Source: a virus (lineage: Duplodnaviria; Heunggongvirae; Uroviricota; Caudoviricetes). Taken from it: DNA of 37,740 nt. Numbering within the stretch: the stretch's first letter is position 1; each line of letters starts with the position of its first letter. Below, one piece after another: positions 10,300 through 36,686 of the stretch. Made by a program: the position numbers and the translations under genes. The notes beneath the pieces were generated by a model, which saw only the letters and a list, made by a program, of their open reading frames with translations, had not been told where the DNA came from and ran no database searches. The DNA lies in IMG/VR virus record IMGVR_UViG_2778261277_000009, positions 1 through 37,740 of that record; one strand, written 5' to 3'.

Positions 10300-11484
10300 T
10301 CAAGCCTTAAGAGGCTTTGTGTATGTTCGTGTAATCCAACCAGTAATAAACTCATCCCCTGATTTAACCTGCACGTAAAGCCATTGACGATCTTTCTTAT
10401 CTAAAATAGCAACAATTGTGTTTTTGCCAATGCATTCAATCACTTCACTATTTAAAGAAGGACTGACATGTAATCTTACGTTATCACCAGTTATAAACCT
10501 AAAACCATTGAGATCTTCCCACTTAATTTCTGTGTTTTCTTTAATTAATTTTTGTTTTGATATTGGTGCATCCTCATATAGGGATACAGAATATGATTCT
10601 GTCTTGTGTATTTGCGATAAGATTTGTTCTTTTGCATAATCAGCAATAGCGCCAAGCACCACTTCTGTTAAAAGCCACATAATAATAAACTGAAGCGGGT
10701 GAGGGAGCGACTTAAATGAATCAATGAACGTCGAACTGGATTTATTTAATCCTTTGTCTTGAACATCACTTTCGTTGTGAGATGTTTCAATAGCACCTTC
10801 GACATAAGCCTGTGCAATTGATGAAAGACTTTGCTCCATTATTTGATGTAATGAAGCCTTTTGCGCTAGGGTATATTGTTTTAATGATTCTTTTATTTCA
10901 TTGTTTAAATCTATCTTATGACTTACATTTTGTCGCAATTCATTAAGTATTGCTTGCATGTTATTTAAACCAGCTTGCTTATTAAGCATCTCGAACTGGT
11001 TTCGTAACGGCATAGCAATTTCTGCCTGCTTCCTTAGCATTTGAATGTATTTATTTGCATCATGCGGGGGATAAACCTTGGCCTGTTTCTGTAGAATTTC
11101 AAGAAATTCACGATGCTTGCTATTTATTCTTCTCAAGCTCGTCATGTTCGCAAGCTGTTTTTTAACAGAATCACTAAGTAACGATTGCAAATTCAATCTT
11201 GCTATTTGTTCTTGAGCTAGCCGCCCTATTCTTAACTGTTCTTGCAAGTTTGCCATATGTTCTCTATACGATGGAATGATTGCGTTTTTTTGCAGTTCTG
11301 CCAACTGTCTAACCAAATTATTAGAAGCATATTCTGATTTTAATAAATCACTTGCCGATGTATATCCTGGCATTTTGATTTTACTTAAATTATCACGCCA
11401 GGTAATATTTGAATCTCTATTATAGAGATCGCTTACTGAGCCAAGTGCAAGTTTTTTAATATCCTTCACTTTATTCACCGTCAT
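10300..11484 (-). CDS. coiled-coil membrane protein with C-terminal SH3b-like domain (function unknown)
   Basis: 394-aa ORF in a low-GC island; long Q/L/K-rich heptad region, one hydrophobic helix (FIIMWLLTEVVLGAIADYA), C-terminal segment ending GDEFITGWITRTYTK that resembles bacterial SH3 domains. Confidence 0.5.
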   Translation of the reverse strand: MTVNKVKDIKKLALGSVSDLYNRDSNITWRDNLSKIKMPGYTSASDLLKSEYASNNLVRQLAELQKNAIIPSYREHMANLQEQLRIGRLAQEQIARLNLQSLLSDSVKKQLANMTSLRRINSKHREFLEILQKQAKVYPPHDANKYIQMLRKQAEIAMPLRNQFEMLNKQAGLNNMQAILNELRQNVSHKIDLNNEIKESLKQYTLAQKASLHQIMEQSLSSIAQAYVEGAIETSHNESDVQDKGLNKSSSTFIDSFKSLPHPLQFIIMWLLTEVVLGAIADYAKEQILSQIHKTESYSVSLYEDAPISKQKLIKENTEIKWEDLNGFRFITGDNVRLHVSPSLNSEVIECIGKNTIVAILDKKDRQWLYVQVKSGDEFITGWITRTYTKPLKA

Positions 11485-11977
11485 CTTGCTTTAAACATCC
11501 ATCATTTTTAGCTTCCTTGTAAATACTTGAAATTCCATCAAGAGAGAATGATGTAATTCGACGCGATCCGATATATACATCCATGTTTTTTTCTTTTGTG
11601 GCTGACGCTGACTTCCAAAAAGAATACCATTCCCTACGATTTGGAGCAGTGTTTTGCGTACCAATATTAAAGCTATCCGGACCAACAATTAAGGTAATTA
11701 CATCAGCTTTACGAGAAATTGTGTCGCGTGTAGAAAAATCAGCATTCTCTTTCCCTCCACTTACATACAAATTTCTTCCAGCTATATGATCTTCGGAACC
11801 TTCCCTTGCTCCAGCATCACAAGAAAAGTTAATTGTATAACCATCGTCATTGGTTGCAGAGATTTCTCTCCACCCTTGCTCACCTCCTACCGTCCAAACG
11901 GTAGAACCTGCCATTGCTGATAATGGCAGAAAAGAGGACATTAATAAAAAGCTATACAATGACTTATATAATTTCAT
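11471..11977 (-). CDS. secreted/periplasmic protein with signal peptide (function unknown)
   Basis: 168-aa ORF; N-terminus MKLYKSLYSFLLMSSFLPLSAMA is a classic signal peptide; AAGGA SD 8 nt upstream; low GC. Confidence 0.5.
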   Translation of the reverse strand: MKLYKSLYSFLLMSSFLPLSAMAGSTVWTVGGEQGWREISATNDDGYTINFSCDAGAREGSEDHIAGRNLYVSGGKENADFSTRDTISRKADVITLIVGPDSFNIGTQNTAPNRREWYSFWKSASATKEKNMDVYIGSRRITSFSLDGISSIYKEAKNDGCLKQDDGE

Positions 11978-12065: not shown

Positions 12066-12557
12066 TTATGGAGCTACACCCGGCCCCCTGGCTCGTTCTT
12101 CAAGCGTACCCTGCACGTTTTGATGGCGCATTCCTGGGGCATTTCTGATTGAGTCAATGCCATTTCTTCCAACATCTTCTTTATTAACGGCATTGCTCGC
12201 CACCAGCACACCCCAGCTAGGGATAGCAAAATCAGGAGCGGTTTCGCATGCCTTTACCATATAATCGAAAGTGCTTCGATTGATCTCATTTGCATCGGGG
12301 TTTAATAGGCGAGAATATTGGTATTTAGCATTTGCGTTGGTTGAGACTTTATACAGTTCCTGCTGCACCATCGCTTCAGAAAGTTTAAGGCGCTTCATAT
12401 CTGACAGTAACTTCTTGCGCATGGATTCGTCTTCACTGACAGCAAATCCGTAAACGTGCCCAAGGTATTTCGTATAATCGGTACAAATCTCCTTTACGCT
12501 TGATGCTGCATTAACAGTCCCAGCCATAAATAATAACGGTAGTAATAGTTTTCTCAT
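12066..12557 (-). CDS. secreted protein with Sit-like C-terminal motif (candidate superinfection-exclusion factor)
   Basis: Start chosen at the ATG with a GGTGAGG SD (MRKLLLPLLFMAGTVNA signal peptide); C-terminal IDSIRNAPGMRHQNVQGTLEERARG matches two motifs near the Sit C-terminus. Confidence 0.5.
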   Translation of the reverse strand: MRKLLLPLLFMAGTVNAASSVKEICTDYTKYLGHVYGFAVSEDESMRKKLLSDMKRLKLSEAMVQQELYKVSTNANAKYQYSRLLNPDANEINRSTFDYMVKACETAPDFAIPSWGVLVASNAVNKEDVGRNGIDSIRNAPGMRHQNVQGTLEERARGPGVAP

Positions 12558-12653
12558 TATAACCTCACCTGCCTTATAACTCATTTAGGGTACATATTTT
12601 CGCCTTTAAAAAAAAGAGGTTATTAGATCCAATTGTGCATTTATTAAACAAAC

Positions 12654-12670: not shown

Positions 12671-12842
12671 GTATTTTTAAGTCACGAATGCTATCTTTTC
12701 GCATCATATTGACCTTTTAATCGTTCAGGCTTATAGTTCCGCCGTCGTAGCAAATTCTGCGACCAGGTTTGACAGCCTGAATGATTGTGCGGACAACCGC
12801 AGATTTCCGATATTGCGGTATTTTTGTGTCCGTTAAACCGCG

Positions 12843-12945
12843 TTACGCCCAAATTATGGTGGGGCGTGATGGGGAGGCTTCGGCCTGCTGGTTTCACAAT
12901 CGCCAGTCTGTCAACCCTGTCACGTCCTGCCACCTGTTTGACAGC
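12843..12945 (+). ncRNA. c4: c4 antisense repressor RNA region (approximate boundaries)
   Basis: Several hairpins upstream of icd; one loop (UUCACAAUCG, 12890-12899) is complementary to GAUUGUGA at the icd ribosome-binding site (12968-12975). Position matches P1 c4. Confidence 0.4.
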
Positions 12946-34471: not shown

Positions 34472-34547
34472 GATGGTGTAGCTCAGCGGTTAGAGCGGTT
34501 GACTGTTAATCAACGGGTCGATGGTTCAAATCCATCCACCATCGCCA
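34472..34547 (+). tRNA. tRNA-Asn (anticodon GTT)
   Basis: Hand-folded cloverleaf: 7-bp acceptor GATGGTG/CACCATC, D-arm TAGCTCAGCGGTTAGAGC, anticodon loop CTGTTAA, T-loop TTCAAAT, encoded CCA. Confidence 0.85.
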
Positions 34548-34549
34548 AT

Positions 34550-34625
34550 GCCGGTTTAGCTCAGTTGGTAGAGCGCCTGCCTTGTAAGCAGGATGTCAGC
34601 GGTTCGAGTCCGTTAACCGGCACCA
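34550..34625 (+). tRNA. tRNA-Thr (anticodon TGT)
   Basis: Cloverleaf with acceptor GCCGGTT/AACCGGC, anticodon loop CTTGTAA, T-loop TTCGAGT, encoded CCA; starts 2 nt after tRNA-Asn. Confidence 0.85.
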
Positions 34626-36610: not shown

Positions 36611-36686
36611 GGCCCTTTAGCTCAGTGGTTAGAGCTGGCGACTCATAATCGCACGGTCACCGGTTCAAGTCCGGTAGGGGCCACCA
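36611..36686 (+). tRNA. tRNA with anticodon CAT (Ile2/lysidine-type or Met)
   Basis: Acceptor GGCCCTT/AGGGGCC, D-arm TAGCTCAGTGGTTAGAGC, anticodon loop CTCATAA, T-loop TTCAAGT, encoded CCA. Confidence 0.8.

What the first reader, a model, noticed from the sequence alone, without database searches (positions are those of the whole stretch)
12066..12150. C-terminus of the secreted 163-aa protein is a spliced copy of two motifs from the Sit injection protein
The last 27 aa of the secreted protein (IDSIRNAPGMRHQNVQGTLEERARG) combine two motifs found about 50 aa apart near the Sit C-terminus (plus-strand 4921-5160). These are NGRGMRREVVQGTLEERARG and MGIDGLFDKLRNSPGMRKN. The DNA is also recognisably similar (CGTTCTTCAAGCGTACCCTG vs CGTTCTTCGAGCGTTCCCTG). 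The pattern looks like recombination between the two PGMR repeats of sit, fused onto a periplasmic carrier. A periplasmic mimic of a Sit segment would be a plausible decoy blocking DNA injection by superinfecting phage.
Basis: partly seen in the sequence, partly recalled or inferred. Interest (0 to 1): 0.6.

Follow-up and report, generated by a model that had tools for sequence, protein, structure and literature searches.

The report
Periplasmic SimA protein carries a Sit motif
A secreted protein from the superimmunity locus of this P1-like phage ends in a copy of a short conserved peptide that is otherwise found only in the phage's injected tail tape-measure protein Sit, so it may block incoming phage by mimicry, but this has not been tested.

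Summary
The similarity is real. The tail of the 163-aa secreted protein (12066-12557, minus strand) matches Sit residues 929-965 at 21/41 identity (E 1e-7; no shuffle of 2000 reached its score). An independent Sit-family profile also picks up the tail.

The "splice of two motifs" reading is not supported. Sit proteins of other P1-like phages carry one contiguous copy of the whole motif (KF[ML]N[SA][PR]GMRH[QE]xVQGTLAERAYG). The second "PGMR" copy lies in a 52-aa insertion absent from the single-copy Sits compared. The DNA resemblance is no more than the shared amino acids impose, so the relationship is old, not a recent recombination.

The protein is the full-length form of SimA; P1's 52-aa SimA is a remnant of it. 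It has a signal peptide, a confidently predicted helical domain with no match to a known fold, and a poorly ordered tail. The motif core in that tail is conserved at least as well as the folded domain.

A profile search of 1.84 billion proteins found the motif only in Sit-like and SimA-like proteins. Distant P1-like phages have it in Sit, with no SimA gene in the stretches recovered.

The mimic or decoy idea is plausible and untested. This is a new variant of injection-stage superinfection exclusion.

The parts
12066..12557 (-). Full-length simA-family gene (163 aa; stop at 12066-12068). An alternative in-frame ATG at 12584 would give 172 aa.
   Evidence: ORF list and sequence. 29 homologues, some named 'simA domain protein'. 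phrog_3933, E 1.9e-113. P1 SimA (52 aa) is 92% identical over 51 aa.
12507..12557 (-). Signal peptide MRKLLLPLLFMAGTVNA, with a cleavage site of the A-x-A type before ASS. There is no lipobox cysteine, so a soluble periplasmic protein is predicted.
   Evidence: Read from the sequence. No dedicated predictor was run. The AF2 confidence is below 50 for residues 1-15.
12183..12506 (-). Conserved helical N-terminal domain (aa 18-125).
12069..12182 (-). Sit-like tail (aa 126-163), predicted poorly ordered. Core NAPGMRHQ at 12120-12143. VQGTLEERARG at 12084-12116.
   Evidence: BLASTP, shuffle test and PHROG cross-hit. pLDDT about 57-61. Core identity in the family 0.78, second half 0.73 among the 9 members that have it.
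12078..12078 (.). Recombination breakpoint. Homology with the longer allele of phage vB_EcoM-Ro157c2YLVW ends here, just after ...RARGPG. This allele ends with VAP-stop instead of a further ~55-aa module.
12418..12418 (.). Point where DNA homology to P1 ends. In P1, simA is cut off here and simB-simC follow.
4581..7979 (-). sit: tape-measure protein with a lytic transglycosylase domain (1132 aa). The SLT domain is aa 750-855 (5415-5732).
   Evidence: Pfam SLT, E 1.9e-14. P1 annotation. Virion proteome and tape-measure assignment in PMC9024508.
5082..5231 (-). Sit motif, copy 1 (aa 917-966): DKIGNAVGVNDLVNKFMNGRGMRREVVQGTLEERARGKGTAT. This is the segment homologous to the SimA tail.
   Evidence: The AF2 model of Sit 711-1132 has pLDDT below 50 over most of this segment.
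4926..5006 (-). Sit partial copy 2 (aa 992-1018): GAQMGIDGLFDKLRNSPGMRKNN. It lies inside a 52-aa insertion absent from the single-copy Sits compared.
   Evidence: Internal repeat, score 54. Insertion seen in the alignment with single-copy Sits. Alleles RNSPGMRKNN, INARGMRSNN and RNAPGMRKSN occur.
11471..11977 (-). Next gene of the sim cassette: a 168-aa protein with an apparent signal peptide (phrog_3429). It is 28% identical to Ro157 gp34.
   Evidence: The gene at this position in other loci hits PF27224 YfjT.
10300..11484 (-). Third cassette gene: a 394-aa protein with a C-terminal SH3_3-like domain (phrog_7086). A terminator-like hairpin lies at 10302-10317.

Best explanation
The 163-aa protein is the intact form of SimA, the first gene of the sim (superimmunity) cassette of P1-like phage-plasmids. 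It has three parts: a Sec-type signal peptide, a helical domain with no match to a known fold, and a flexible tail.

The tail holds one contiguous copy, about 35-50 aa, of a conserved linear motif: ...F.N[AS][PR]GMR[HQ]Q.V[QE]G[TS]L.ERA[RY]G... [quoted passage not shown]

Shown here: the homology, the single-unit nature of the motif, its restriction to these two families, and its conservation.

Inferred: Sit's C-terminal part enters the periplasm when a P1-like phage injects. A prophage-made periplasmic protein displaying the same peptide would then act as a molecular mimic. It would occupy whatever partner, host or phage, the Sit motif must engage, and so block DNA entry by superinfecting P1-like phages.
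For: Homology:
- BLASTP E 1e-7; 0 of 2000 shuffles reach the score.
- Independent hit of the tail to the Sit profile phrog_2533.
- In the alignment of motif segments, M, R, G, R, A and G are invariant over 12 Sit and SimA segments.

Single unit: seven single-copy Sits carry KF[ML]N[SA][PR]GMRH[QE]xVQGTLAERAYG. The tail scores 109 against the L005 Sit.

Exclusivity:
- A 52-column profile run over 1.84e9 representatives gave 11 hits. Ten are Sit-like proteins (1081-1367 aa), SimA-like proteins (176-222 aa) or fragments of them. One is a spurious repeat protein.
- SimA occurs in 267 PLSDB plasmids, 263 of them typed non-mobilizable. Those listed are mostly about 90-110 kb, and those examined are P1-like.

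Direction: distant P1-like phages (L082, L083) have the motif in Sit, and no SimA gene lies in the 15-18 kb recovered.

Selection:
- The core NAPGMRHQ has 0.78 mean pairwise identity, against 0.72 for the folded domain and 0.54-0.61 for the linker.
- A SimA only 42% identical keeps NAPGMRHQAVKGSMAERARG.
- Synonymous sites are randomised.

Context:
- The gene lies in the sim locus beside c4-icd-ant.
- sim is a hypervariable region (PMC9603915).
- Sit is the virion tape-measure protein with an SLT domain (PMC9024508).
- Other exclusion proteins act on tape-measure-dependent injection (PMC10883804).
Against: - No functional data exist for any full-length SimA.
- In P1 the Sim phenotype is attributed to SimC (my own knowledge: Maillou and Dreiseikelmann 1990). 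P1 itself carries only a SimA stump.
- The partner of the motif is unknown.
- No covariation between a phage's SimA motif and its own Sit motif was detected (permutation p about 0.11-0.16, 10-15 distinct pairs).
- Half of the family keeps only the core and lacks VQGTL..RARG.
- The export signal was judged by eye only.
- Low AF2 confidence in both regions allows disorder but proves nothing about binding.
Confidence: 0.4

Rival explanations
1. SimA is a binder, not a decoy. Its helical domain recognises the Sit motif on incoming phage and sequesters Sit. Its own tail is an intramolecular pseudo-ligand that occupies the groove until Sit displaces it.
For: - A well-conserved folded domain is always attached to the motif.
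- The tail's pLDDT of 57-61 is higher than the 25-46 seen for the Sit motif region.
- The window allele was truncated exactly after the motif, keeping domain plus motif as a unit.
Against: No contact information could be obtained, because no multimer prediction or coordinates were available. No covariation was seen. Nothing distinguishes this from the decoy model.
Confidence: 0.17
2. The shared peptide is a common handling signal in the periplasm, for example a protease-processing site, a chaperone-recognition site, or an element that docks onto and inhibits the transglycosylase domain. SimA's role is then something other than competition for an injection factor, such as Spackle-like inhibition of the incoming muralytic domain.
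For: - In both families the motif sits in a linker between modules: SLT and C-terminal end in Sit, helical domain and variable C-terminal modules in SimA.
- It lies about 90 aa after the SLT domain.
- The P1-type copies contain dibasic RR and RK.
Against: - AF2 gave no confident docking of the motif on the SLT domain (mean pLDDT 44.6).
- No evidence of Sit processing was found in the P1 virion papers read.
Confidence: 0.15
3. One reading: the tail was made recently by recombination between the two PGMR repeats of this phage's sit gene and fused to a periplasmic carrier.
For: In this window the left half of the tail (GIDSIRNAPGMR) resembles repeat 2 (GIDGLFDKLRNSPGMR) more than repeat 1, and the right half is identical to repeat 1 over 11 residues.
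Against: - Single-copy Sits have GI[DN]..L.DKF.NAPGMRHQ.VQGTL contiguously.
- Repeat 2 lies in an insertion absent from the single-copy Sits compared.
- Codon identity is at chance level.
- Nucleotide identity to repeat 2 is 17/30.
- The motif is present in SimA homologues at 42-60% identity whose Sit has one copy.
- The order of the halves is wrong for a deletion between direct repeats.
Confidence: 0.03
4. The tail is a functionless relic of an old capture of a sit fragment, or a chance resemblance.
For: No function has been shown. Half the family has lost the second half of the motif, and P1 has lost nearly the whole gene.
Against: - Chance is excluded.
- A neutral relic in a poorly ordered tail should decay. 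Instead the core is conserved at least as well as the folded domain while synonymous sites are scrambled.
Confidence: 0.07

Closest known systems
P1 sim (superimmunity) locus, simA-simB-simC
   Same: Same position between pmgC and the c4-icd-ant immunity region, same upstream DNA, and a first gene that is the same over its first ~50 codons. The genes encode exported proteins and are dispensable for lytic growth (PMC10695390).
   Different: P1 has only a 52-aa SimA stump, and its known exclusion protein is SimC (my own knowledge). This window has the full SimA with the Sit-like tail and no SimB or SimC. Two other genes follow instead; at least the first product looks secreted.
Exclusion proteins that act on tape-measure-dependent DNA injection (TP-J34 Ltp, HK97 gp15)
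   Same: Made by a prophage and located outside the cytoplasm. Their blocks are overcome by changes in the tape-measure protein (PMC10883804; Bebeacua 2013 as cited).
   Different: Those proteins are a lipoprotein or a membrane protein with no reported sequence copy of their target. Here the candidate carries a copy of a peptide from the tape-measure protein itself, and the phage is a contractile-tailed one.
T4 Spackle (Sp), periplasmic inhibitor of the gp5 tail lysozyme
   Same: A small helical periplasmic phage protein thought to act on the muralytic part of the incoming tail (my own knowledge).
SNIPE, a membrane nuclease that engages tape-measure proteins during injection
   Same: A defence that exploits the exposure of the tape-measure protein at the envelope during injection (PMC13190303).
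   Different: SNIPE is a host membrane-anchored nuclease that cleaves DNA. SimA has no nuclease or membrane domain.

Membership tests
SimA family (phrog_3933; 'simA domain protein') | Full-length match to the family profile, including the conserved CTDYxKYLGH...LSEAMV...IPSW domain | tested here: met
   phrog_3933 E 1.9e-113 over residues 1-162. 29 homologues with 35 invariant columns.
SimA family (phrog_3933; 'simA domain protein') | Position as first gene of the sim cassette, divergent from c4-icd-ant | tested here: met
   P1 and Ro157 annotations. C4 RNA at 12852-12937. Same arrangement in 7 other loci.
Injection-stage superinfection exclusion proteins | Export to the envelope or periplasm | tested here: inconclusive
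   A typical Sec signal peptide (MRK, hydrophobic core, VNA before A) was read from the sequence. No predictor or experiment was used.
Injection-stage superinfection exclusion proteins | Expression from the prophage, and a block of infection after adsorption but before DNA entry | not testable with these tools
   Needs plating, adsorption and DNA-entry assays.
P1 Sim protein (SimC) | Sequence homology to SimC | tested here: not met
   tblastn of P1 SimC and SimB against the window found nothing at E <= 0.1. SimC has no GMR motif.
Sit / tape-measure family (phrog_2533) | Long helical ruler region, SLT domain and conserved C-terminal end | tested here: not met
   Only residues 127-162 match, at profile positions 927-963 of 1130. 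No SLT hit in SimA.
PTP-like phytase (PF14566) | Score above the Pfam gathering cut-off, and the HCxxGxxR catalytic loop | tested here: not met
   25.4 bits against a cut-off of 27. The sequence has no HCx5R motif.
Spackle-like or other solved periplasmic inhibitors | Fold similarity to a solved inhibitor | tested here: not met

The most novel reading that the evidence does not exclude
P1-like prophages exclude their relatives by peptide mimicry. A periplasmic protein displays a copy of a short linear motif from the tape-measure protein and so jams the step at which that motif must be recognised during DNA injection. This would also reveal that the conserved GMRHQ linker motif of Sit is an essential docking element of P1 injection, whose partner could then be fished out with the peptide.
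Probability: 0.35. Interest if true: 0.75.

Novelty: new variant of a known kind. Interest (0 to 1): 0.5.

Why it matters
How P1 gets its DNA across the envelope, and what the last 280 residues of its tape-measure protein do, are unknown. Sit was not resolved in the recent cryo-EM work (PMC12810830).

A peptide conserved across all Sit homologues examined, and copied only into a secreted prophage protein of the superimmunity locus, singles out about 10-25 residues for direct testing: deletion, alanine scan, peptide pull-down and escape mutants.

If the mimicry holds, it would be an exclusion principle not described for phages in the papers I could search. It would also explain why the sim cassette and sit diverge together in related plasmid prophages (PMC6799933), and it would matter for the spread of P1-like phage-plasmids that carry resistance genes.

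Tried and rejected
- Covariation between each phage's SimA motif and its own Sit motif: not significant with 10-15 distinct pairs. The AP/SR dipeptide matched in 5 of 10 lineages by my hand count from the and 34 listings, against about 3 expected.
- Recent gene conversion: rejected by the codon test.
- AF2 of Sit 711-1132, to see whether the motif docks on the SLT domain: the model was too poor (pLDDT 44.6).
- The word-indexed search with the Sit C-terminal region returned almost only Sit fragments. The exhaustive profile search replaced it.
- The weak PTP-like phytase Pfam hit is below cut-off and lacks the catalytic motif.
- PADLOC and NCBIfam gave no hits.
- The P1 genome paper (PMC523184) is not held, so I could not check whether the resemblance was noted there.
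- The contigs carrying the distant SimA P0049 are only about 1 kb, so its cognate Sit is unknown.

Full report
**Where we are.** The window is a P1-like phage-plasmid. DNA around the finding matches P1, P7 and relatives at 93-99%. The gene order is sit - pmgB - tub - pmgC - sim cassette - c4 - icd - ant. Rfam finds the C4 antisense RNA at 12852-12937 and its a1b1 target at 12731-12783. The protein is 100% identical to products of ~92-110 kb plasmids of E. coli and E. fergusonii.

**The gene.** The ORF at 12066-12584 (minus strand) has two in-frame ATGs. It begins with a typical Sec signal peptide, MRKLLLPLLFMAGTVNA followed by ASS, and has no lipobox cysteine.
- P1 DNA homology stops at window 12418.
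- P1's 52-aa SimA is identical to this protein for its first 45 residues and then ends. P1 SimA is therefore a stump of this family.
- Databases name relatives 'simA domain protein'. The family is phrog_3933, of unknown function.
- In PLSDB, 267 plasmids carry the gene. Of these, 126 cover at least 80% of the protein, and all the partial matches listed are the 48-residue stump.
- The window has no SimB or SimC homologue. Two other genes follow: 11471-11977 (168 aa, with an apparent signal peptide) and 10300-11484 (394 aa, SH3-like C-terminus). A terminator-like hairpin lies at 10302-10317.

- BLASTP of the protein against Sit (4581-7979, 1132 aa) aligns residues 131-171 of the 172-aa form with Sit 929-965. 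Identity is 21/41, E 1e-7, including the exact 11-mer VQGTLEERARG.
- A second segment aligns with Sit 1005-1018 (8/14, E 0.006).
- The Smith-Waterman score of the tail is 90. Shuffled tails gave mean 32 and maximum 61 in 2000 trials. The second match scores 50, reached by 8 of 2000 shuffles.
- Independently, the PHROG profile of the Sit family matches SimA 127-162 at its positions 927-963 (E 1.6e-5).

**Is it a splice of two motifs?** No.
- I recovered seven contigs from Salmonella, Klebsiella and metagenomes that carry both a diverged SimA and Sit, plus 68 IMG/VR loci.
- All Sits outside the E. coli P1 type have one copy of the motif. It contains both 'halves' contiguously. One example is L005: GINGLADKFLNAPGMRHQAVQGTLAERAYGKGTATAMGN.
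- The window's tail scores 109 against that single segment, more than against its own Sit.
- The window's Sit is about 50 residues longer. The alignment shows a 52-aa insertion, absent from the single-copy Sits, that contains the second PGMR copy.
- Sit aa ~921-947 and ~989-1016 are an internal repeat: D.[IL]G...G[VI][ND].L..K..N..GMR. That is why the tail resembles both.
- A more distant Sit (P0050, 1367 aa) has two GMRHQV copies of its own, so duplication recurs.
- In longer SimA alleles the similarity runs further, through G.GT...MGN[LV]S. In total about 45-50 residues are homologous.

**Is it recent DNA exchange?** No.
- Over 69 nt, simA and Sit copy 1 share 47 positions.
- Of 16 codons encoding identical residues, 7 are identical, against 5.8 expected from the window's codon usage (p 0.33).
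- A SimA only 42% identical to this one still has NAPGMRHQAVKGSMAERARG.

**How specific is the motif?** A 52-column profile of Sit and SimA segments was run over 1.84 billion representative proteins without a word filter.
- It gave 11 hits at E <= 0.001. Ten are Sit-like proteins of 1081-1367 aa, SimA-like proteins of 176-222 aa, or fragments of these. One is a spurious repeat protein.
- Two distant P1-like loci (L082, L083) have the motif in Sit but no SimA gene in the 15-18 kb recovered. The motif is therefore most simply native to Sit and was copied early into SimA.

**Anatomy and conservation.**
- AF2 predicts a confident helical domain for residues 20-125 (pLDDT above 90) and a poorly defined tail (57-61).
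- The Sit region around the motif is also predicted without confidence. The model's mean pLDDT is 44.6, and most of the motif segment is below 50. Sit was not resolved in P1 cryo-EM (PMC12810830).
- Within the SimA family the core NAPGMRHQ has 0.78 mean pairwise identity. The folded domain has 0.72 and the preceding linker 0.54-0.61.
- VQGTL.ERARG is present in about half of the family (0.73 identity there). In the rest it is replaced by PS..[DE]FK.C modules.
- Relatives mostly continue with variable C-terminal modules. The window allele ends 5 residues after RARG, because homology with the longer allele breaks at 12078.

**Mechanism.**
- Established: Sit is the virion tape-measure protein with a transglycosylase domain near its C-terminus (PMC9024508).
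- Established: exclusion proteins of other phages act on tape-measure-dependent injection (PMC10883804), and sim is a hypervariable, non-essential cassette.
- From my own knowledge: P1 Sim is an exported protein that blocks infection after adsorption.
- Inferred: a periplasmic protein displaying a conserved Sit peptide competes with incoming Sit for the motif's partner, or alternatively binds Sit through its helical domain.
- I found no covariation between SimA and Sit motifs of the same genome (p 0.11-0.16). No binding or phenotype data exist, so I give the mimic model 0.4.

**Novelty.** None of the papers I could read mentions the resemblance. The P1 genome paper was not available. I rate the finding a new variant of a known kind, namely injection-stage exclusion proteins of prophages, with moderate interest.

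Noticed in passing
window 12418-12584; L001 3509-3667: P1's annotated 52-aa SimA is the N-terminal stump (signal peptide plus about 28 residues) of a 160-250-aa family. In PLSDB, 126 of 267 matching plasmids cover at least 80% of the protein, and the partial matches listed are all the 48-residue stump.
   Followed up: yes
window 11471-11977 (-) and 10300-11484 (-): SimB and SimC are replaced here by a 168-aa protein with an apparent signal peptide (phrog_3429; the gene at this position in other loci hits Pfam YfjT) and by a 394-aa protein. The latter has a possible membrane segment, a C-terminal SH3_3-like domain and a weak amidase-PHROG hit. The two ORFs overlap by 14 nt.
   Followed up: partly
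window 5400-5850 (Sit SLT region) versus L003, L005, L007, L010, L032-type Sits: Sit is mosaic. Two different versions of the end of the SLT domain (AYHAGMG.[VI]DK... versus AYNAGFGTINKWK...RARYLGG) are combined with either motif type. The window has the first version with the P1-type double motif, whereas many E. coli loci have the second.
   Followed up: partly
window 4926-5006; loci L020, L021, L031, L051, L056: Repeat 2 of Sit has at least three alleles (RNSPGMRKNN, INARGMRSNN, RNAPGMRKSN) in otherwise near-identical Sits. Both P1-type copies have lost the His-Gln of the GMRHQ core, which SimA retains.
   Followed up: partly
proteins P0003, P0004, P0007, P0008, P0016, P0023: Several database SimA entries have out-of-frame C-termini, with frameshifts around the motif. 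They could be assembly errors or pseudogenes.
   Followed up: no
window 12731-12783 and 12852-12937 (+): The C4 antisense RNA and its a1b1 target element of the immI operon lie just upstream of, and divergent from, simA.
   Followed up: yes
window 34472-34544, 34550-34622, 36611-36683 (+): Three tRNA genes.
   Followed up: no
window 4700-4900 (Sit aa ~1030-1090): The stretch ISDLGGSGAKPTMQLADNTV is invariant or nearly so across all Sit homologues, including the most distant. It is a second conserved element of unknown role, downstream of the motif.
   Followed up: no
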